Sequence record: NC_042046.1
Strand: one strand, 5' to 3'
DNA from: Escherichia phage C119
DNA length: 47,319 bases
This document shows, piece by piece, positions 1,246 to 44,922 of the stretch. Made by a program: the position numbers and the translations under genes. Numbering within the stretch: the first letter of the stretch is position 1; every line of letters begins with the position of its first letter. The notes beneath the pieces are model-generated. The model searched no databases. It was not told where the DNA came from and was given only the letters and a program-made list of their open reading frames with translations.

Positions 1246-2691
1246 ATGGCTTACACAGAAATTGCTATGGCAGTAGGGAATTCACCTGAAATCTTAGCCA
1301 GGAACGTAAAAGTGATGATGTCATCAGGCTTTCAGCCATATGGTGATGTGCAGATGCTAAGCGGCACCCTCTTTGGCATGAAGATGGCGAAAGGAACAAC
1401 AAACAACGTTGAAGACTTCATGGTTACATCCGACACCACAATTCAGGGGCTAGTTAACATGGTTAACCGATATCTAGCGCAGGGCTGGAAAAGGTTTGGC
1501 AATGCTCACTTCGAGGATGGCGCTTATATTTCAGCTCTGGCTAAAGGTGATTTTGCAAGTGATGAAGGAGGGGGTTCAGGTGAAGCAGGTCCACAAGGTC
1601 CGGTTGGTCCGCAGGGTCCAGCAGGTCCCGCAGGCGAAGCTGGTCCGCAAGGCCCTCAAGGTCCAACTGGTGCAACTGGCCCAGCAGGTGCGGCAGGCGC
1701 CAAAGGTGACACTGGTCCGGCAGGCCCTGCAGGCCCGCAAGGTCCTCAAGGCGAGACTGGAGAAGCTGGTCCACAGGGTCCTATGGGCCCAACAGGTGCA
1801 ACAGGTCCGGCTGGCCCAAAAGGTGATAAAGGTGATGCAGGTCCAGTTGGTCCGGCAGGCTTGACATTCCGTGGGGTGTACGACGCAGCGACAGCTTACG
1901 TTAAAGATGATGTTGTTACATTCAATAACTCCAGCTGGTTTGCTACCACTGCTGTTACCGGAGAGAATCCAGATGTTAGCGATTCCTGGGAATTGCTGGC
2001 TGCACAAGGCGCCCCTGGCCCACAAGGAGCAACCGGTCCAGCAGGCCCGACTGGCCCAGCAGGCCCGGCTGGCATTCAAGGTCCTCAGGGAGAAAGAGGC
2101 CTTCAGGGTGAGCAGGGTCCGACAGGTCCGCAAGGCTTGCAAGGTGCAGCAGGTGCAGTCGGGCCTCAAGGCCCAGCAGGTCCTCAGGGTGAGCCAGGAA
2201 TACAGGGTCCTGTTGGCCATCAAGGTCCAATTGGCCCTAAAGGCGATAAGGGAGACCCGGGAATATCAAGAACCTTCATGAAAGTTAAAACATCGCCTGA
2301 TGTTGGCACTAATCATATGTTAAGACTACCAGCTCCTCTTAACAACCTATCTGTTGGTATAAGGCTTGATTCAACAGTGCTTTTTAGCATTAGAGCCTGG
2401 ATTGATGAGGGAAGCACTGCCAGGAACATAAGAGGTAATATTGAGGGCTTCAATAATACAGATAACTACTTCAATACAACAGTAAGGACAGCAATATCTT
2501 CATCTTCCGTAACTGGAACAGCATTGGTTACTGGCATTGGTGAATTTCAAAGAATAAGGCCATATGTTTTTAGCTTTTATGAAACCACAACAGGAACGGC
2601 GTGGAGAGTAACAATAAATCTATTTACAGTCGGTTATGTTGTGAGCGACAATCAAGACCTGTGTATAGAAGTTGTAAGGCTTGATGCATAA
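1246..2691 (+). CDS. Collagen-like triple-helix repeat protein (481 aa) with globular N- and C-terminal domains
   Basis: ATG 1246 with AGGAGA RBS; two long runs of Gly-X-Y repeats ([28 protein letters not shown]... and [31 protein letters not shown]...) separated by a non-collagen segment; C-terminal domain of about 140 aa. Confidence 0.8.
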
Positions 2692-2782: not shown

Positions 2783-3730
2783 ATGACTATCAAACTTGAC
2801 GCTTTCGAGCAAGAAAAGATCACTAACCACCTGCGAGCCATGGGCGTTGATAAGGCTGATGCAGCTGGTATCTGGACCGTGAAGCAGCTCACCGCAAGCC
2901 TGAATAAAGCTTACGAAACCGAGTACGACCAGAACTCCGTGGTAAACCTGTTCCCTGTAAGCAATGAAATTCCTGGCTACGCTAAGTACTTTGAGTATCC
3001 GGTATTTGATGGCGTTGGTATTGCTCAGATCGTGGCTGACTACACTGATGACCTGCCGCTGGTTGATGCTTTGGCAACTGAACGTCAGGGTAAAGTTTTC
3101 CGTTTCGGTAACGCGTTCCTGATTTCCATTGATGAAATTAAAGTTGGTCAGGCTACCGGTCAGTCTCTGTCTACTCGCAAGCAGTCTCTTGCTTTCGAAG
3201 CTCATGACAAGCTGCTTGATAAACTGGTGTGGTCCGGCTCTACTGCTCACGGCATCCCGAGTGTGTTCGACTACCCGAACATCAACAACGTTGTTAGCGG
3301 TGGTTCATGGTCTCAACCAACTACAGCAGTAAGCGATATTACAAGCCTGCTGGATATCATTGAGACTTCAACTAATGGTCAGCACCGTGCAACTCACCTG
3401 CTTCTGCCTACTACCGCCCGTCGTATTATGCAGAACCTGGTGCCTGGCACTTCTGTTAGCTACGGTGAGTTCTTCCGTCAGAACAATAGCGGCGTAACCG
3501 TTGAGTTCGTTCAGTACCTGAATGATTACAATGGCACTGGTACCTCTGCAGCTATCGCTTACGAGAAAGACCCTAACAACATGGCAATCGAGATTCCGGA
3601 AGCGACTAACGCACTGCCGGCTCAGCCGCGCGACTTGCACTTCCGTGTTCCGGTAACTTCTAAAGCAACCGGTTTGATCGTGTTTAGGCCTTTAACTATG
3701 GCTGTCATGAAGGGCATTACTTTTGCTTAA
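2783..3730 (+). CDS. Major capsid protein
   Basis: About 315 aa ORF in the canonical position after scaffold/decoration genes, followed by a strong hairpin plus T-tract terminator. Start is uncertain: in-frame candidates at 2744 (TTG), 2771 and 2783 (ATG); RBS AAAGGA at 2766-2770. Confidence 0.7.
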   Translation: MTIKLDAFEQEKITNHLRAMGVDKADAAGIWTVKQLTASLNKAYETEYDQNSVVNLFPVSNEIPGYAKYFEYPVFDGVGIAQIVADYTDDLPLVDALATERQGKVFRFGNAFLISIDEIKVGQATGQSLSTRKQSLAFEAHDKLLDKLVWSGSTAHGIPSVFDYPNINNVVSGGSWSQPTTAVSDITSLLDIIETSTNGQHRATHLLLPTTARRIMQNLVPGTSVSYGEFFRQNNSGVTVEFVQYLNDYNGTGTSAAIAYEKDPNNMAIEIPEATNALPAQPRDLHFRVPVTSKATGLIVFRPLTMAVMKGITFA

Positions 3731-18173: not shown

Positions 18174-18356
18174 TTTGTATTCCTTAGTCAGTATGTTTCG
18201 TTTCGATGGAGTAACTATAGCAAAGGCTTCTGCTGTAGTCTTTAGCAAATCGTGCTATTTTATATACGCGTAACCGATGTAACTCGATGTATACAATCTC
18301 ATCCGCTGAAAATTGTATACGCTTTTTACGCGAAGATACGCATTAGTTACATTTAT

Positions 18357-18424
18357 AAATCCTTATATAATAAGGGTTTAGAGTATTATTATTATTATAT
18401 ATATTACTATGTATATCTTGTAAC
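18357..18424. repeat. AT-rich element copy A with (TTA)n microsatellite
   Basis: aaatccttatataataagggtttagagtattattattattatatatattactatg...; near-identical to the element at 38617-38686; lies in a divergent intergenic region. Confidence 0.8.
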
Positions 18425-18719
18425 TACTCTCTATAGCTATGTTGTTGTGTTTTACTAAAATACTATGTTTGATTTCCTGTTAAGGAGAAAATGCATATAT
18501 ATATAGATAGGGTGCAAATTTGGTGGATACATTGGTTACAAGGGTTACATTCAGCATTCATGCGGCGTACAGAGCATCAAAGCGTATTTATGTGAGTTTT
18601 ACAGCTATATACAAAATAGCACGAATAATCAAAAAGCATGATTCCTGATTGGTTATAGTGCACTCACCGGCAGCAGTGGTGCTGCTTTTGATGCAAAAAA
18701 TGCACCACAAAATCCGGGA

Positions 18720-36750: not shown

Positions 36751-37100
36751 TTGTATTGGCTCTCGAATTTATAAGTTCCGCAAACAGTTGTAAATCCAAC
36801 ATCTTCAGAGCGAATCAGCGTCCATGAGTCACCATCTTCATCAAATATTTTACCAGCGTTCTGTCCAAGAGATGCGGTCATTTCTACCTGATAGCGACGA
36901 CCTTGCTTGAATGACTTTGATACTCCTGATTTATGGTTAACAAATGTGACATAAAGAGTCTTAGTCTTGATGTAACGCCCCCGCTCAGTGAGATTTTGCC
37001 ATTTACCATGAATCTTGATTTGCTCAATACCATCTTTAACGCGAGCTTTAAACAGATTGTTATCTGAGCTGATCCAGTTTTTAGTGATAGTGGTAGCCAT
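36747..37100 (-). CDS. Hypothetical protein (117 aa)
   Basis: ORF-track ORF, coupled to the downstream gene. Confidence 0.55.
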   Translation of the reverse strand: MATTITKNWISSDNNLFKARVKDGIEQIKIHGKWQNLTERGRYIKTKTLYVTFVNHKSGVSKSFKQGRRYQVEMTASLGQNAGKIFDEDGDSWTLIRSEDVGFTTVCGTYKFESQYK

Positions 37101-38085: not shown

Positions 38086-38269
38086 AACGCTCTACCTCGA
38101 AGTTGTATACCATTACGTTTCTATCATGCTTGTTCTTTATCACCATTGACTCAAGCTCTTCGTATACAGCCACTACATTGTAAACACCACCAGGCTCAAG
38201 GCCGTAGAATTCGTACTCTTCATCGTCAAAACCATCCGTTTTACTTAGTGCTGTTATTTTTACCTTCAT
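38075..38269 (-). CDS. Hypothetical acidic protein (64 aa)
   Basis: First gene after minus-strand cassette copy (motif 38325-38345, leader 38270-38292). Confidence 0.55.
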   Translation of the reverse strand: MKVKITALSKTDGFDDEEYEFYGLEPGGVYNVVAVYEELESMVIKNKHDRNVMVYNFEVERYED

Positions 38270-38616
38270 ATCTATCTCCTCGTTGTTGATGAGTTTACTA
38301 TAGCCTTGCCATCCCCATTTGTCTTTAGCAAAAAGTGCTATTCGTCAGATTTATGGATTGTTGCAGGCATTGCGATGATTAGCATGACTATTACACATAA
38401 AGCAATATTTCATCGATTGCAATGATTTTCTGGACTGTTGCGAATTTATCAATGATTGATGGATTGATGGAATGAAGTGAGGGTTGTATCAACTAGTTGG
38501 TTGGTTTTAGCTTTCACAAGGAGCTTTCCTTTATGTACGCGTTATGGCTTGTTCAACCGTGTAGAGAAATTGCCATATTTACGCCATCCACGCCAGTTTA
38601 CGCGCTGGTTACAAAA

Positions 38617-38686
38617 TAAATCCCTTATATAACAACCATTTAGATTTATTATTATTATTATTATTATATATGTTATTCCGTAACCA
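38617..38686. repeat. AT-rich element copy B with (TTA)7 microsatellite
   Basis: aaatcccttatataacaaccatttagatttattattattattattatatatgttattccgtaacc; direct repeat of the element at 18357-18424. Confidence 0.8.
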
Positions 38687-38941
38687 TGATTATCTGAGAT
38701 ATTGGTGATATTTTTTGATATTGCGCGGCGCATAAAGATTTAGATAAAGAGATAGGGATGCAAGCGGGGTGGCGAAAATGGCTTAACATACCATAACGGC
38801 AATAACAGCCTTGATACGACTAGCGTCAGCATGTAACAATTTAGCATAACGTGCGATTACCGAGTTGAACGTGTAAATAACGCTTGCGACATTCACCAAT
38901 CATGGTAAGATGCTCTCACACCAAACGAGAGGAGTAGTAAA

Positions 38942-39457
38942 ATGAGTAATACAATTCGTGAAGCAAACCCGACACTTGGCGACCTGGTGCGGCACCTTGT
39001 TAAGATGGCTCTTAATTCAGAGGATGGAAGCGTAACAGTTCCCGTTAAGTTGCTTTACAAGAATCTTTACGGAGAAATTGATAACGACTATGTAGCAGCT
39101 GACTTTAGACCTGGCGGCAAATATTCACTTCCAAAGCTTAAGGCTTCCTATGTTTCAAATACAGCCAGCAGAATGCAGGAAGTTAAAGACGCAGATAAGC
39201 GCGCAAGGTTCTCTTGTGGAGAGATGGAGTATAATGGTGATGAGCATTATTGCGTAAAAATCACAATGGTCAACGGTGCTGTTAAGAATGGAACCCGAGC
39301 TAAGACAAACAGTCAATTAGAGGAGAAAGCGGTAAGCGAGTTTAAAGCTAGGCTACTTAAGCTTTCCCCCAGCGTAGCAGGAATGAGTGGAGATGAACTG
39401 AAGGGTGCGGTAGCTATGATTAACGCATATCAGGAAATGATTAAGGAGACTAAATAA
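38942..39457 (+). CDS. Hypothetical protein (171 aa)
   Basis: ATG 38942 with GAGGAG RBS; first gene of the rightward operon after the 650-bp noncoding region. Confidence 0.6.
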   Translation: MSNTIREANPTLGDLVRHLVKMALNSEDGSVTVPVKLLYKNLYGEIDNDYVAADFRPGGKYSLPKLKASYVSNTASRMQEVKDADKRARFSCGEMEYNGDEHYCVKITMVNGAVKNGTRAKTNSQLEEKAVSEFKARLLKLSPSVAGMSGDELKGAVAMINAYQEMIKETK

Positions 39458-40017
39458 TGTTTGATTTCAACGAGGATAAGTTAACTGATGACCAGGTGAT
39501 GGAAGTCGCCAGGCAAGATAACCTGCCGCCACTTCGTGTGGCAATCAGTACTAATGGATACCGCCAATCATTCAATTTCTGGCCCAGCGCCGAAGAGATG
39601 CTGTGCGTCAAGTTGAGCTACAAATACGGTGTCGTAGTTAGCAGGATTAGCCGCCATGGCTGGAATGGAGTGGTTGGCATTCGATCTCTATACGAGGCAA
39701 TACGAAATGTCCAGCCATTCGTCGGGCGCGAAGGGATTATGCATGACCTGACAAATAACATCATCCCAGAACTACAAGAGGCGGGAATTGTTTGCCTCAT
39801 TGGCGATAAGATTTATGTTCATCCGGCCCTGGTTGAGATGGATAAGGACGACGTGCAAAACTGGTGCAGTCAGTGCCGATCCGACGTGCCACGCTCAAAC
39901 TACGTGCCACCGCAAACAACAATCCATGGCTATAATGCCGATGAGGTGGAGAAGGCCATACAGTTCTACCGGAAAGCGAAAGCTCTCCCGAATGGTGAAT
40001 ATAGCACAAATTGCTAA
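39457..40017 (+). CDS. Truncated paralog (186 aa) of the 529-aa NTPase-like protein, lacking the central P-loop core
   Basis: N-terminus MFDFNEDKLTDDQVMEVARQDNLPPLRVAISTNGYRQS and C-terminal block VVGIRSLYEAIRNVQPF...CLIGDKIYVHP align to the ends of the 34468-36057 product; AAGGAG RBS; stop inside a cassette motif. Confidence 0.65.
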   Translation: MFDFNEDKLTDDQVMEVARQDNLPPLRVAISTNGYRQSFNFWPSAEEMLCVKLSYKYGVVVSRISRHGWNGVVGIRSLYEAIRNVQPFVGREGIMHDLTNNIIPELQEAGIVCLIGDKIYVHPALVEMDKDDVQNWCSQCRSDVPRSNYVPPQTTIHGYNADEVEKAIQFYRKAKALPNGEYSTNC

Positions 40018-42464: not shown

Positions 42465-42540
42465 GTTCTGCTGGCGTAACAGGATAACGCAGAGACCTCC
42501 TAAGTCTCAGTTACTGGTTCGAGTCCAGTGCGGAACACCA
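42465..42540 (+). tRNA. tRNA-Arg (anticodon CCU, reads AGG) with encoded CCA
   Basis: Hand-folded cloverleaf: acceptor gttctgc/gcggaac (7 bp, one G-U), D-arm gcgt-aacaggata-acgc, anticodon arm gagac-ctCCTaa-gtctc (U33, A37 present), 4-nt variable loop, T-arm actgg-TTCGAGT-ccagt, discriminator A, CCA. Confidence 0.75.
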
Positions 42541-42795: not shown

Positions 42796-42841
42796 GTCCA
42801 TAGTCATGGTACAATGACTTTTAAAACAGGAGGAATATCAA

Positions 42842-43357
42842 ATGTCAGAAGAGAAAAAAATTCACCAGAAGATTGGTAACTTCAAGGAGCTTTACAATAA
42901 GAAGTATGGCGACATTGCCAATCTTAAGATTAACCACAGATACACTCCCGAGCAGGTATTCGACATGGCTGTAAGGTATTTCAGCTGGGCTGAAGAGCAG
43001 GCAATTAAAGCTATCGAGACAGCAAGCTTTCAGGGTGTCGTAACGGAAAACCTTGTTCACAAGCCGAGGGTATTTACGATAACTGGATTCCAGCTTTTCT
43101 GCGGCGTTGGTCATAATGCTATTAGCAAATGGCGCTCATCACCAGGATTCGATGAAGTTATGGAGTTCGTCGACTCAGTTATCTTTGAACAGAAGTACCA
43201 GTTGGGTGTTAACAACATCGTCAACCCTGGACTTATTAGCAAAGACCTTGGCATCGATAAGCCGCAAGAGGTTAACATCAACAACGCTTCTAATGCTGTA
43301 GTAAACGACGAGGAAGCAATGAAGTCTGCTCTGGCTTCTGTAATGGATAAACTATGA
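42842..43357 (+). CDS. Terminase small subunit
   Basis: 171 aa ORF immediately upstream of, and ATGA-coupled to, the large terminase gene. Confidence 0.65.
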   Translation: MSEEKKIHQKIGNFKELYNKKYGDIANLKINHRYTPEQVFDMAVRYFSWAEEQAIKAIETASFQGVVTENLVHKPRVFTITGFQLFCGVGHNAISKWRSSPGFDEVMEFVDSVIFEQKYQLGVNNIVNPGLISKDLGIDKPQEVNINNASNAVVNDEEAMKSALASVMDKL

Positions 43358-44922
43358 AGACATTGGTTTGGGAAGAAATGACGCCAGCCGAAAAGCTGGC
43401 AGTTAAAGTGCTGTCCACTCACAGCTTCGAGGCATTCCTTCGCGTGTGGTTTCAGCTAAGCCAGGGAGAGCGATACATCCCTAACTGGCATCACAAGTAC
43501 CTTTGCCGAATAATTGACGAGGTTATTAGTGGCGAGCGTAGGGATACCATCATTAACGTGGCTCCCGGGGCCGGGAAGACCGAGATTACTTCAATACACT
43601 TCCCTGTATACTCAATGCTTAAGCTAAAGAAGGTGCGAAATCTGAGCCTCTCATTCTCTGACAGTCTGGTGAAGCGCAACTCTAAGCGTGTTCGCGACCT
43701 TATAAAGTCAGCTGAGTTTCAGGAACTATGGCCCTGTAAGTTCGGCACGTGCAAGGATGACGAGATTCAGGTTCTTGACGAGAGTGGAAAGGTTAGGTTC
43801 GAAGCGATATCTAAGGCAATTGGCGGTCAGATTACCGGCGCTCGTGGCGGTTATATTACTGAAACCTATAGCGGTTGCTTGATGCTTGATGACCCAGACA
43901 AGCCAGACGATATGCTCAGCAAGGTAAGGCGAGAAGCTGTCCACGTTTTACTTAAAAATACCATTCGCTCACGTAGGGCGAGTAGCGTTAAAGGTAAAGC
44001 TACGCCGATTTTGTCCATCCAGCAAAGGCTTCATACGCAGGATTCGACGTGGTTCATGACTTCTGGTGGTATGGGTATCGACTTTGATGTATTGAAGATA
44101 CCGGCGCTGGTCACTGAAGAATATGTGAATGAACTTCCTGACTGGATTCGTGAGCAGTTCGAGAAGGACGTGCTTTCATCCGAGTACGTCGAGCGAGATG
44201 GTGTTAAGTATTACAGCTACTTCCCGCAGAAGGAATCTGCGCATGACTTGATGGCAATGTGGGACTCAGATCCGTACACGTTCCTAAGCCAGTACCAACA
44301 ATCTCCAGTAGCCTTAGGTGGAAACCTGATTAACGTAGATTGGTTCGTGAGGCTTGACGAGAACAACAGGCCGCCAGTCAAGTATGACTACCGCTTCATT
44401 ACAGCTGATACTGCCATGACTACGAAGAGTTACAGCGATTATTCTGTGTTCCAGCTTTGGGGTAGAAAGGATAACAAGATTTATCTTCTGGATATGGTTA
44501 GGGGTAAATGGGAGGCTCCAGAGCTTGAGCAAACTCTTCTGAACTTTGAGAGTAAGCACCGAGCAGCTAGTAAAACAGATGGTATCTTACGTAAGGTTAT
44601 TATCGAGAAGAAAGCATCTGGCATAGGGCTTATCCAGTCAGCAGGTCGAACGATGCGGACTCCTATTGAGCCTTTCGTTCCCGATACAGATAAGTTAACC
44701 AGGGTGATGAGCGCATTACCACAGATTAAGGCTGGTAACGTAGTTCTGCCAGACTCAGCGCCATGGCTTACATCTCTGCTAACTGAGTTCTCGGCGTTCA
44801 CTGCGGACGATTCACACCCCCATGATGACATTGTAGATACAACAACGATGGCAATAAACTGTGAATTGAACTTGAGTGACGACCCAAGAGCTAGGTTAAT
44901 GAGGCTAGCTGGAGTTAAGTAA
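43354..44922 (+). CDS. Terminase large subunit
   Basis: 522 aa; Walker A NVAPGAGKTE; C-terminal nuclease-type acidic residues; followed by the portal gene. Confidence 0.85.
   Translation: MKTLVWEEMTPAEKLAVKVLSTHSFEAFLRVWFQLSQGERYIPNWHHKYLCRIIDEVISGERRDTIINVAPGAGKTEITSIHFPVYSMLKLKKVRNLSLSFSDSLVKRNSKRVRDLIKSAEFQELWPCKFGTCKDDEIQVLDESGKVRFEAISKAIGGQITGARGGYITETYSGCLMLDDPDKPDDMLSKVRREAVHVLLKNTIRSRRASSVKGKATPILSIQQRLHTQDSTWFMTSGGMGIDFDVLKIPALVTEEYVNELPDWIREQFEKDVLSSEYVERDGVKYYSYFPQKESAHDLMAMWDSDPYTFLSQYQQSPVALGGNLINVDWFVRLDENNRPPVKYDYRFITADTAMTTKSYSDYSVFQLWGRKDNKIYLLDMVRGKWEAPELEQTLLNFESKHRAASKTDGILRKVIIEKKASGIGLIQSAGRTMRTPIEPFVPDTDKLTRVMSALPQIKAGNVVLPDSAPWLTSLLTEFSAFTADDSHPHDDIVDTTTMAINCELNLSDDPRARLMRLAGVK

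What the first reader, a model, noticed from the sequence alone, without database searches (positions are those of the whole stretch)
38346..38520. Iteron-like short repeats next to AT-rich element B
Within the 650-bp gene-free region, 38346-38470 contains reiterated related words: ATTGCGATGATT, ATTGCAATGATT, GTTGCGAATTT and a tandem GATTGATGGATTGATGG. Short reiterated words beside an AT-rich tract are the classical architecture of iteron-containing origins or multi-site operators. The corresponding region beside copy A (18250-18356) has different repeats (gtatac / tacgcg words).
Basis: seen in the sequence. Interest (0 to 1): 0.5.

Follow-up and report, generated by a model that had tools for sequence, protein, structure and literature searches.

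The report
Packaging start site of T1-like phage
The flagged short repeats are real and strongly conserved, but they most likely mark where this T1-like phage starts cutting and packaging its DNA (its pac site), not a replication origin, and they give that site a defined sequence architecture for the first time that I could find.

Summary
The window is a Rogunavirus (phiKP26/AHS24-like, T1 family). The flagged words exist at the stated coordinates and are non-random: 12 near-repeat 10-mer pairs against 1.5 expected.

They resolve into four 17-bp inverted repeats, RTTGC-N7-GCAAY (38360-76, 38390-406, 38407-23, 38437-53), spaced 30-17-30 bp and mirror-symmetric about 38406/7. A C-poor tandem GATTGATG x2.8 follows (38454-75).

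The array is indel-free in 13 Drexlerviridae. Its half-sites are more conserved than its spacers (p = 8e-7). It is non-coding and unstructured, and it occurs once per genome.

Three independent sequencing-based packaging termini (UDF157lw, MSK, SU57) map to window ~38485-38510, 30-55 bp right of the array. T1's record starts, with its 2.8-kb terminal repeat, at the homologous palindrome. TLS's restriction-mapped pac lies in the same intergenic region.

There are no direct iterons, DnaA boxes, GATC sites or a nearby initiator gene.

Best reading: this is the pac region, made of recognition sites, a G/T-rich tract and a cut zone, with packaging running rightward towards TerS/TerL about 4.4 kb away. 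Which protein binds the palindromes is unresolved: TerS of the P22-gp3 family, or the phage's candidate HTH protein. The origin reading is not supported. The "multi-site protein-binding array" reading is right in form.

The parts
38297..38341 (-). Leftward early promoter. It is adjacent to the flagged repeats, not part of them. On the minus strand: -10 TATAGT (38297-38302), -35 AAGACA (38320-38325), and the Drexlerviridae 21-nt promoter-associated direct repeat ATAGCACTTTTTGCTAAA (38324-38341).
   Evidence: The promoter scan lists AAGACA-17-TATAGT on the minus strand. The sequence matches the TLS-paper consensus aaATAGCACnnnTTGnTAAAA with 0 mismatches. That consensus has 24 matches in the window against 6.4 expected (PMC11447400).
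38348..38359 (.). Conserved left flank of the array, GATTTATGGATT.
   Evidence: It is nearly invariant in 13 phages.
38360..38376 (.). Site S1, GTTGCAGGCATTGCGAT (form RTTGC-N7-GCAAY; the right half-site reads GCGAT).
38390..38406 (.). Site S2, ATTACACATAAAGCAAT. The left half-site is degenerate (ATTAC); most relatives have ATTGC.
38407..38423 (.). Site S3, ATTTCATCGATTGCAAT. The left half-site is degenerate (ATTTC). S3 abuts S2, and the mirror axis of the whole array lies at 38406/38407.
   Evidence: The Rogue1 record ends at the equivalent of 38406, and T1 base 1 aligns to the same position.
38437..38453 (.). Site S4, GTTGCGAATTTATCAAT. The right half-site is degenerate (TCAAT).
38454..38489 (+). 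Relatives carry analogous short tandems here: GTGAGTGAGTGA in Rtp-like phages and GATTTGATTTGATT plus GTGAGTGAGT at TLS base 1.
   Evidence: Tandem Repeats Finder. A C-free run covers 38451-38489. Comparison with relatives.
38485..38510 (+). Inferred zone of the first packaging cut, with packaging proceeding rightward. The positions are the homologous points of the termini reported for three relatives: about 38484|38485 (UDF157lw), about 38488|38489 (MSK) and about 38509|38510 (SU57).
   Evidence: UDF157lw's record was re-organised by PhageTerm, and its boundary reads ...GGAGGTT|TGGATC. MSK's PhageTerm forward terminus is at 36,862. SU57's start was chosen at a PhageTerm peak with a coverage step. 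Mapping to window coordinates uses the alignment.
38487..38499 (+). Match to the IHF consensus WATCAANNNNTTR (TATCAACTAGTTG), lying on the cut zone. Among the aligned phages only phiEB49 keeps the match, so this is weak.
42842..43357 (+). Terminase small subunit gene (171 aa), 4.4 kb downstream in the direction of packaging.
   Evidence: Pfam PF16677 GP3_package, 35.7 bits against a cut-off of 29.4. phrog_606 'terminase small subunit', E = 1.8e-60.
43354..44922 (+). Terminase large subunit gene (522 aa).
   Evidence: ORF listing, the phiKP26 annotation, and 59% identity to T1 TerL.

Best explanation
The flagged interval is the packaging-initiation (pac) region of this headful-packaging T1-like phage.

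It has three parts, read left to right:
1. An array of four 17-bp dyad-symmetric sites, RTTGC-N7-GCAAY (38360-38453), spaced 30-17-30 bp. I infer that this is the sequence-specific recognition element.
2. A G/T-rich tract with a short tandem, (GATTGATG)n, at 38454-38489.
3. The zone where terminase makes the first cut on the concatemer (about 38485-38510).

From that cut, DNA is packaged rightward, through the AT-rich module and the early right-arm genes towards terS/terL, by processive headfuls.

What is shown:
- The repeats are real, non-coding, unstructured and confined to one place in the genome.
- They carry a protein-binding-type conservation footprint.
- Experimentally derived termini of three relatives map 30-55 bp to their right.

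What is inferred:
- This phage cuts at the homologous place.
- The palindromes are what the packaging machinery recognises.
- The binder is either TerS or a dimeric phage DNA-binding protein that recruits terminase. Its identity is not resolved.
For: 1. Identity and gene context. The window is 99.8% identical to phiKP26 here. The genome encodes a P22-gp3-family TerS and a TerL 4.4 kb to the right. Relatives are reported as headful pac packagers (PMC11447400; PMC8421802; PMC10838988).

2. Termini.
- UDF157lw belongs to the same genus. Its deposited sequence is the PhageTerm-reorganised one, and its boundary aligns to window about 38485.
- MSK's PhageTerm forward terminus at 36,862 aligns to about 38489.
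- SU57's start, chosen at a PhageTerm peak that coincides with a coverage step, aligns to about 38510.
- T1's record opens, together with its 2.8-kb terminal repeat_region, on the palindrome GTTGCATGGTGTGCAAC. A second site follows 30 bp later.
- TLS's restriction-mapped pac is in the same intergenic region and starts in GATTTG / GTGAGTGAGT words.
- The SU57 paper states that the pac site lies in this region in T1-like phages but was not identified.

3. Footprint.
- In 7 of the 13 phages compared (12 relatives plus the window) all 8 half-sites are exact, in an identical 9-21-9-8-9-21-9 register.
- There are no indels across the array.
- Half-site columns carry 1.87 bits against 1.40 bits for spacer columns (Mann-Whitney p = 8e-7).
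- The site cluster occurred in 1 of 1000 shuffles and the spacing chain in 0 of 1000.

4. The array occurs once per genome and only in this phage clade.

5. Other explanations excluded. The region is not coding, shows no unusual single-strand structure (z = -0.24) and matches no Rfam family.

6. Suggestive only. Phage lambda has two 14/17 matches to T1's first site, against 0.1 expected in shuffles. One of them (42838, + strand) lies between genes P and Q. From memory, Drexler (1984) mapped a T1 packaging-initiation site on lambda to that interval. I could not verify this in the held library.
Against: - No terminus data exist for this phage itself. All positional evidence comes by homology.
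- PhageTerm calls can be spurious. One relative, TR2, is reported with a start at 18,637 (+). In the deposited record that position lies between ssb and the recombinase gene, not at the array. The analysed contig may have been a different permutation, and I could not tell.
- T1's base 1 lies about 60 bp left of the position homologous to the UDF157lw and MSK cuts, so at least one of these assignments is approximate.
- Known pac sites of the P22-gp3 TerS family are single asymmetric sites inside the terS gene. Ring-shaped TerS oligomers would be expected to read direct repeats, not inverted ones. Dyad-symmetric 17-bp sites suit a dimeric HTH protein better.
- The window's own copy is the most degenerate of those compared: no site is perfect, and 5 of 8 half-sites are exact.
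- Comparing TerS and the HTH protein among the window, T1 and TLS could not identify the binder.
Confidence: 0.62

Rival explanations
1. The four palindromes are operators for a dimeric phage regulator. The candidate is the 157-aa protein next to the primase gene, which carries a weak Cro/YdaS-type HTH match. It would control transcription or another early process at the divergent early region. The pac signal proper would then be only the adjacent G/T-rich tract and cut zone, so the two elements are neighbours, not one device.
For: - 17-bp dyad-symmetric sites with half-sites about one helical turn apart are the classic target of dimeric HTH proteins (established knowledge; the lambda operators annotated are 17 bp long).
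- The phage encodes a protein of phrog_2856 'transcriptional regulator', with a weak P22_Cro/YdaS HTH match.
- In the HTH stretch, the window (TRQAV) and T1 (SNQTV) share a Q where TLS has K (NLKTV). TLS also lacks the RTTGC-N7-GCAAY sites. This is very weak.
- The array sits between divergent early promoters.
Against: - The sites do not overlap any promoter hexamers. Their centres lie about 78-155 bp upstream of the leftward start and more than 430 bp from the rightward promoter.
- No copy of the site lies near the regulator's own gene or at any of the other promoter-repeat (DR) matches in the genome (24 in all, about 15 of them close).
- The Pfam HTH matches are below the curated cut-offs (24.3 bits against 30).
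- The regulator gene is 12 kb away.
- The lambda P-Q match to T1's site, if it is esp-lambda, points to packaging.
Confidence: 0.2
2. One reading: the repeats are iterons of a phage replication origin that works together with the AT-rich tract to the right.
For: - The origin of T1-like phages is unmapped (PMC11447400 and PMC7718038).
- An AT-rich (TTA)7 tract lies in the same intergenic region.
Against: - The repeats are inverted, mirror-symmetric palindromes, not same-orientation iterons.
- There is no DnaA box and no GATC in 38270-38941.
- The AT tract starts about 165 bp from S4, with the packaging cut zone in between.
- The AT tract belongs to a separate conserved module with its own TACGC words. 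That module is duplicated at 18264-18430, where no RTTGC-N7-GCAAY site exists.
- No Rep- or O-type initiator gene is adjacent.
- Cumulative GC skew shows no turning point specific to this site beyond the change of gene orientation.
Confidence: 0.07
3. The array binds a host architectural or regulatory protein, or acts mainly through DNA shape or bending. It would organise the region without being the specificity determinant of either packaging or transcription.
For: - An IHF-consensus match lies at 38487-38499.
- TGC-N7-GCA fits the generic T-N11-A pattern of LysR-type sites (my own knowledge).
- The region is AT-rich and G/T-skewed.
Against: - The motif is not enriched elsewhere in the phage genome (40 sites against 33 expected).
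- TLS, which infects the same host species, has a different palindrome pair at the same place. That pattern fits a phage-specific binder better than a host one.
- Among the aligned phages the IHF match is kept only in phiEB49.
Confidence: 0.08

Closest known systems
Bacteriophage T1 pac site (classical genetics and physical mapping; GenBank NC_005833 is numbered from the pac end)
   Same: - Same phage family, same divergent intergenic region and same gene order, with terS several kb downstream.
- T1 has two RTTGC-N7-GCAAY sites 30 bp apart that are homologous to S3 and S4, followed by GATTGTGAGAGGGG...CTAGTG, which resembles the window's stretch after S4.
   Different: - T1 has only two sites, and GATC pairs just to their left. 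The window has four sites and no GATC.
- T1's base 1 lies at the S2|S3-equivalent junction. That is not homologous to the cut position inferred from UDF157lw and MSK.
- I found no paper that describes the sequence determinants.
SPP1 pac (pacL - pacC - pacR) (from my own knowledge)
   Same: Several short repeated TerS-binding boxes lie on the non-encapsidated side of a separate cleavage region, and packaging is unidirectional from the cut.
   Different: - SPP1's TerS belongs to a different family.
- Its boxes are not 17-bp palindromes.
- Its pac overlaps the start of the terS gene, whereas here terS is 4.4 kb away.
- No pacR-like element has been shown here.
P1 pac (from my own knowledge)
   Same: Clusters of short repeated words flank a cleavage zone, and IHF takes part. 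The window has an IHF-consensus match at the cut zone.
   Different: P1's words are TGATCA/G hexamers regulated by Dam methylation. The window's region has no GATC at all. T1 and TLS, which encode a Dam-type methylase, do have GATC clusters next to their base 1.
Lambda cosB (R3-I1-R2-R1 next to cosN) (from my own knowledge)
   Same: A multi-site array for small-terminase dimers lies beside the cut site, with inverted elements and an IHF site.
   Different: Lambda is a cos phage with precise nicking and a different TerS family (Nu1), and its R elements have a different sequence and layout.
P22 / Sf6 pac sites (same TerS family, PF16677)
   Same: The TerS protein family is the same, packaging is by headfuls, and the cuts are imprecise and spread over tens of bp. 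The three mapped termini here span 25 bp.
   Different: P22's pac is a single asymmetric 22-bp sequence inside gene 3 (quoted in PMC11447400). Here the candidate signal is four palindromes in non-coding DNA 4.4 kb upstream of terS.
Lambda OR/OL-type multi-site operators
   Same: Repeated 17-bp dyad-symmetric sites in a divergent early intergenic region.
   Different: - There is no overlap with promoter hexamers.
- The spacing is 30-17-30 with overall mirror symmetry.
- No regulator gene is adjacent.
- This is a lytic phage with no repressor/cro switch.

Membership tests
pac site (packaging initiation region of a headful-packaging phage) | The phage encodes TerS and TerL and packages by the headful mechanism. 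| tested here: met
   TerS matches PF16677 and phrog_606, and a TerL gene is present. Headful pac packaging is reported for relatives UDF157lw, MSK, TLS and T1. For this phage it is inferred by homology.
pac site (packaging initiation region of a headful-packaging phage) | A unique genomic position at which the first cut of a packaging series is made (a physical terminus). | tested here: inconclusive
   Termini of three relatives map to window about 38485, 38489 and 38510. T1 and TLS start in the same region. No read data exist for this phage, and the TR2 report is discordant.
pac site (packaging initiation region of a headful-packaging phage) | Sequence-specific binding by the small terminase (or terminase holoenzyme). 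| not testable with these tools
   Only a conservation footprint is available. The covariation attempt was uninformative.
pac site (packaging initiation region of a headful-packaging phage) | Sufficiency: foreign DNA carrying the site is packaged or transduced at high frequency. | not testable with these tools
   There is only an indirect hint: lambda has a 14/17 match to T1's site between genes P and Q. From memory, that is where T1 starts packaging lambda DNA. I could not verify this.
Iteron-containing replication origin | Three or more direct (same-orientation) repeats of about 17-22 bp. | tested here: not met
   The sites are inverted-repeat palindromes arranged mirror-symmetrically. The IMG/VR pattern matches both strands 19 nt apart at the same locus.
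Iteron-containing replication origin | An immediately adjacent AT-rich unwinding element. | tested here: not met
   The nearest AT tract (about 38620-38680) is about 165 bp from S4. It belongs to a separate module that is duplicated at 18264-18430 without these sites.
Iteron-containing replication origin | A cognate initiator gene at or next to the origin, and/or DnaA boxes or GATC clusters. | tested here: not met
   The flanking small proteins have no initiator-like family. The primase and candidate HTH genes are about 12 kb away. The region has 0 DnaA boxes and 0 GATC.
Iteron-containing replication origin | Supports replication in vivo. | not testable with these tools
   None available.
Multi-site transcriptional operator | Repeated dyad-symmetric sites of about 14-20 bp. 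| tested here: met
   Four RTTGC-N7-GCAAY sites.
Multi-site transcriptional operator | The sites overlap or closely flank promoter -35/-10 elements. | tested here: not met
   The leftward promoter hexamers are at 38297-38325, and the site centres are at 38368-38445. The rightward promoter lies beyond 38880.
Multi-site transcriptional operator | A cognate dimeric regulator is encoded and binds the sites. | tested here: inconclusive
   A candidate exists (phrog_2856, with a sub-threshold Cro/YdaS HTH match). Binding cannot be tested here.
Drexlerviridae 21-nt promoter-associated direct repeat (aaATAGCACnnnTTGnTAAAA) | A match to the consensus in an intergenic position, oriented with transcription. 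| tested here: met
   38324-38341 (-) matches with 0 mismatches, upstream of the leftward genes (PMC11447400). This element abuts the flagged words but is distinct from them.

The most novel reading that the evidence does not exclude
The four palindromes are the true pac recognition signal, but they are read by a dimeric HTH-type protein, either a dedicated phage factor or TerS acting as dimers. The mirror-symmetric 30-17-30 array would then nucleate a looped or wrapped nucleoprotein complex that positions terminase on the adjacent G/T tract. That would be a pac architecture unlike any described for the P22-gp3 TerS family. It could also couple packaging initiation to early-region regulation, because the array lies between the divergent early promoters.
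Probability: 0.2. Interest if true: 0.55.

Novelty: new member of a known kind. Interest (0 to 1): 0.38.

Why it matters
T1-like phages (Drexlerviridae) are common laboratory and fermentation contaminants. They are also candidates for phage therapy and are generalised transducers. None of the papers I could read defines their pac signal at the sequence level.
- The SU57 paper says the pac site was not identified.
- The TLS paper assigned its pac site by resemblance to P22's.

A concrete, conserved four-palindrome array next to three mapped termini gives a directly testable candidate. It could be used to:
- orient and open genome records consistently;
- remove ORF calls laid over it that do not hold up in relatives (AHS24 gp67/gp68) and re-examine similar calls in Opt-79 and CEB_EC3a;
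- predict pseudo-pac sites and transduction hot-spots;
- build packaging-competent vectors.

It also separates this element from the neighbouring duplicated AT-rich module. That module, not the flagged words, is the better place to look for the still-unmapped origin.

Tried and rejected
- **Small gene.** Rejected. The ORFs annotated here in AHS24 (gp67 = window 38306-38425; gp68 = 38497-38619) have stops or frameshifts in most relatives, and the 28-codon ORF behind the AAGGAG ribosome-binding site is intact only in Opt-79.
- **Structured RNA or ssDNA element.** Rejected. The DNA fold has z = -0.24, and there are no Rfam hits even at E <= 1.
- **Sigma-70 promoters inside the array.** Only one weak, non-conserved minus-strand match was found.
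- **Simple pentamer enrichment.** ATTGC/GCAAT reaches 4 per 135 bp, in the top 0.2% of windows. This is modest on its own. The spaced-palindrome description fits far better.
- **Covariation to identify the binder.** TerS identity among the window, T1 and TLS is 50-57%, and HTH-protein identity is 54-58%. All three lineages are equidistant for both proteins, so the test is uninformative.
- **Second copy of the sites elsewhere.** The window has none. T1 has one extra pair 30 bp apart at about 8139/8169, inside gene ST55 upstream of terS. About 0.2 such pairs are expected by chance, and both sites are imperfect and in coding DNA, so I treat it as chance.
- **Literature check of T1's esp site on lambda and of how T1 base 1 was set.** No paper on either is in the held library, and the Rtp genome paper is not held. 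The Rogue1 and AHS24 papers say nothing about pac or these repeats.
- **IMG/VR scan for the array outside Drexlerviridae.** It returned only the known isolates plus one metagenome contig.
- **ESCO41.** Its record starts at S1. I could not find how that end was set.

Full report
**What the window is.** A 1.9-kb stretch around the finding is 99.8% identical to Escherichia phage phiKP26 and 99.7% identical to AHP24 and AHS24 (Drexlerviridae, Rogunavirus; T1-like siphoviruses). The flagged interval lies in a 672-bp divergent intergenic region. The leftward genes start at 38269, and the rightward genes start at 38942 with the homologue of Rtp gene 1. By the T1/Rtp convention this gap is where genome records of the family are opened.

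**Observation check.** The four quoted words are present exactly where stated, and each is unique in the window. Tandem Repeats Finder reports GATTGATG x2.8 at 38454-38475. Near-repeats are enriched over dinucleotide-preserving shuffles. There are 12 pairs of 10-mers with at most 1 mismatch against 1.5 expected (1 of 300 shuffles reached 12), and 18 pairs of 12-mers with at most 2 mismatches against 1.8 (0 of 300).

**What the words really are.** I aligned the intergenic region of 13 Drexlerviridae. The set spans Rogunavirinae, Braunvirinae and T1. The stretch 38320-38480 is the best-conserved non-coding DNA in the region.

Its left end (38324-38341, minus strand) is a perfect copy of the family's 21-nt promoter-associated direct repeat, aaATAGCACnnnTTGnTAAAA, described for TLS (PMC11447400). 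That consensus has 24 matches in the window against 6.4 expected. It sits on a leftward AAGACA-17-TATAGT promoter.

They resolve into four 17-bp inverted repeats of the form RTTGC-N7-GCAAY:
- S1, 38360-38376
- S2, 38390-38406
- S3, 38407-38423
- S4, 38437-38453

The sites are spaced 30, 17 and 30 bp centre to centre, so the whole array is mirror-symmetric about 38406/38407.

In 7 of the 13 phages compared (12 relatives plus the window) all eight half-sites are exact, in an identical register (GC-centre differences 9-21-9-8-9-21-9). There is not one indel across the array. Half-site columns are more conserved than spacer columns: 1.87 against 1.40 bits, Mann-Whitney p = 8e-7.

The window's copy is somewhat degenerate, with 5 of 8 half-sites exact and each site one mismatch from TTGC-N7-GCAA. 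Even so, four such sites within 100 bp occurred in 1 of 1000 shuffles of the window, and the spacing chain in none.

T1 has two such sites 30 bp apart. TLS has none, but carries a different palindrome pair (AGACCGATTGGTCT x2) at the same place.

A scan of IMG/VR found the array only in this clade, and at nearly every locus on both strands 19 nt apart, as mirror symmetry predicts.

Relatives have analogous short tandems there.

**What it is not.**
- It is not coding. The ORFs annotated over it in AHS24 have stops or frameshifts in relatives.
- It is not a structured RNA or ssDNA element (z = -0.24; no Rfam match).
- It lacks the tested features of an iteron origin. The repeats are inverted, not direct.
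- The 672-bp region has no DnaA box and no GATC.
- No initiator gene is adjacent.
- The AT-rich tract is about 165 bp away and belongs to a separate module that is duplicated at 18264-18430 without these sites.

**What ties it to packaging.** The phage has a P22-gp3-family TerS (PF16677, 35.7 bits against a cut-off of 29.4; phrog_606) and a TerL 4.4 kb to the right. Three independent sequencing-based termini from relatives fall within 25 bp of each other, just right of the array and inside the flagged interval:
- UDF157lw is in the same genus. [quoted passage not shown] Its boundary...GAATGAAAGGAGGTT|TGGATCAAATAG, aligns to window about 38485.
- MSK's PhageTerm forward start at 36,862 (PMC8421802) reads ...GATGGATGGA|CTACC, which aligns to about 38489.
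- SU57's start was chosen at a PhageTerm peak that coincides with an abrupt change in read depth (PMC7718038). It reads ...CAAGTTGATTTTA|CCAATC, which aligns to about 38510.

T1's record begins, with its annotated 2.8-kb terminal repeat_region, on the palindrome GTTGCATGGTGTGCAAC. TLS's pac was restriction-mapped to the same intergenic region, and its base 1 lies in GATTTG / GTGAGTGAGT words. MSK's terminus is on the forward strand and T1's terminal repeat is at the left end, so packaging runs rightward, away from the array.

**A suggestive independent hint.** From memory, Drexler (J Virol 1984) found that T1 starts packaging on lambda DNA at a site between genes P and Q. I could not verify this in the held library. 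Lambda has two 14/17 matches to T1's first palindrome, against 0.1 expected in shuffles. One, AATGCGTGGTGTGCAAC at 42838 (+), lies in ninG between P and Q. If my recollection is right, this supports the palindrome as a packaging signal and not an operator.

**Mechanism proposed.** A phage protein recognises the four dyad-symmetric sites and assembles a complex on the non-encapsidated side. This resembles SPP1 pacL or lambda cosB. Terminase then cuts imprecisely in the 38485-38510 zone beyond the G/T tract, and packages rightward by processive headfuls.

What is shown is the repeat architecture, its conservation footprint, its uniqueness in the genome, and the position of relatives' termini. 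What is inferred is that this phage cuts at the homologous place, that the palindromes are the recognition signal, and who binds them.

The binder is open. Ring-shaped TerS of the P22/Sf6 family would be expected to read direct repeats, whereas 17-bp palindromes suit a dimeric HTH protein. The phage encodes a candidate (phrog_2856, with a weak Cro/YdaS HTH match below Pfam's cut-offs). Comparing TerS and the HTH protein among the window, T1 and TLS could not decide between them.

**Counter-evidence.**
- There are no reads for this phage itself.
- One relative, TR2, is reported with a PhageTerm start at 18,637 (+). In the deposited record that lies between ssb and the recombinase gene.
- T1's base 1 is about 60 bp left of the position homologous to the UDF157lw and MSK cuts, so the assignments are not base-accurate.

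**Comparison and novelty.** This works like the multi-site pac/cos recognition regions of SPP1, P1 and lambda, and it is homologous in position to the classical T1 pac. That pac lies in this intergenic region is already known in outline. The SU57 paper says so, while noting that the site was 'not identified'.

I found the four-palindrome architecture described nowhere in the papers I could read. I file it as a new member of a known kind, of moderate interest to phage specialists. The origin reading is not supported. The 'multi-site binding array' reading is right in form.

Noticed in passing
window 38534-38690 and window 18264-18430 (also T1 L025:1-300 and L025:29851-30377): A conserved AT-rich module is duplicated at two divergent intergenic regions. 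It consists of 3-4 TACGC(G/C) words, then GGTTACA, TATATA..CAACCATTTAG and (TTA/ATT)n TATATA, closed by an inverted GTAACC (arms 38606-38619 and 38673-38686, 86% complementary). Copies A and B align at 70% identity (E = 2e-11). The genome-wide peak density of TACGC is at copy A. The module is present in all 13 phages aligned, including T1, and T1's cor/recE intergenic region has a similar AT tract flanked by GTAACA words. It lies more than 200 bp from the nearest gene-proximal promoter. It is a better origin/DUE or early-promoter candidate than the flagged words.
   Followed up: partly
window, 24 sites (for example 11080, 18241-, 26667, 29063, 29748, 30434, 32279, 37489-, 38324-, 40001, 41117): The Drexlerviridae 21-nt promoter-associated direct repeat ATAGCACnnnTTGnTAAA has 24 matches against 6.4 expected by chance. 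The close matches (0-1 mismatch) are oriented with local transcription. The TLS authors call its role unresolved (stoperator, enhancer or UP-element).
   Followed up: partly
window 38840-38857 (-); T1 L004:101-120: A second, degenerate copy of the promoter repeat (ATCGCACGTTATGCTAAA, 2 mismatches) points leftward from the right side of the same intergenic region. T1 has a perfect copy at the equivalent place. If active, it would transcribe leftward across the AT-rich module, the cut zone and the palindrome array.
   Followed up: no
window 38487-38499: TATCAACTAGTTG matches the IHF consensus WATCAANNNNTTR exactly, on the inferred cut zone. About 0.02 matches are expected in this region by chance. 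Among the aligned phages only phiEB49 keeps the match.
   Followed up: partly
lambda L027:42838-42854 and L027:33457-33473: Phage lambda has two 14/17 matches to T1's first pac-region palindrome, against 0.1 expected in shuffles. One lies in ninG between P and Q, preceded by GCAATATT. From memory, that interval is where T1's packaging site on lambda (esp) was mapped.
   Followed up: partly
T1 L005:1440-1537 and TLS L021:540-603, compared with window 38270-38941: T1 and TLS, which both encode a Dam-type methylase, have 2-3 GATC sites within 50 bp to the left of their base 1. The window's whole intergenic region has none, and phiKP26 lists no methyltransferase. This may indicate P1-like methylation control of pac in some lineages only.
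   Followed up: no
TLS L021:483-515: TLS has a tandem pair of a different palindrome (AGACCGATTGGTCT x2) at the position, relative to the promoter repeat, where other subfamilies have RTTGC-N7-GCAAY. This suggests lineage-specific recognition sites within a conserved layout.
   Followed up: partly
AHS24 L002:2207-2326 and 2398-2520; Opt-79 L019:381-923; CEB_EC3a L017:739-855: Public records annotate small 'hypothetical' or 'membrane' proteins over the palindrome array and cut zone. The two AHS24 frames have stops or frameshifts in relatives, so they look like over-calls. I did not test the Opt-79 and CEB_EC3a calls separately.
   Followed up: yes
TR2 OP251154 L024:338 (record position 18,637): The PhageTerm packaging start reported for TR2 falls at a terminator-like hairpin between ssb and the recombinase gene, not at the array (which is at about 3535-3726 in that record). 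This is either a spurious peak or a contig permuted differently from the deposited record.
   Followed up: partly
window 42465-42537: A tRNA gene (Rfam RF00005, 57.6 bits) lies among the small right-arm early genes. Rogue1-like phages are reported to carry an arginyl-tRNA.
   Followed up: no
window 1578-2073: Collagen-like 9- and 18-bp tandem repeats (GGTCCGCAG and similar) occur inside a large ORF. The Rogue1 paper notes GPVGP repeats in the corresponding tail-fibre-like protein.
   Followed up: no
window 39457-40017: The second rightward gene (186 aa, phrog_7327, unknown function) has a partial match (E = 5e-21) to the C-terminal part of a PHROG annotated as DNA helicase. The first rightward gene is DUF7174.
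   Followed up: no
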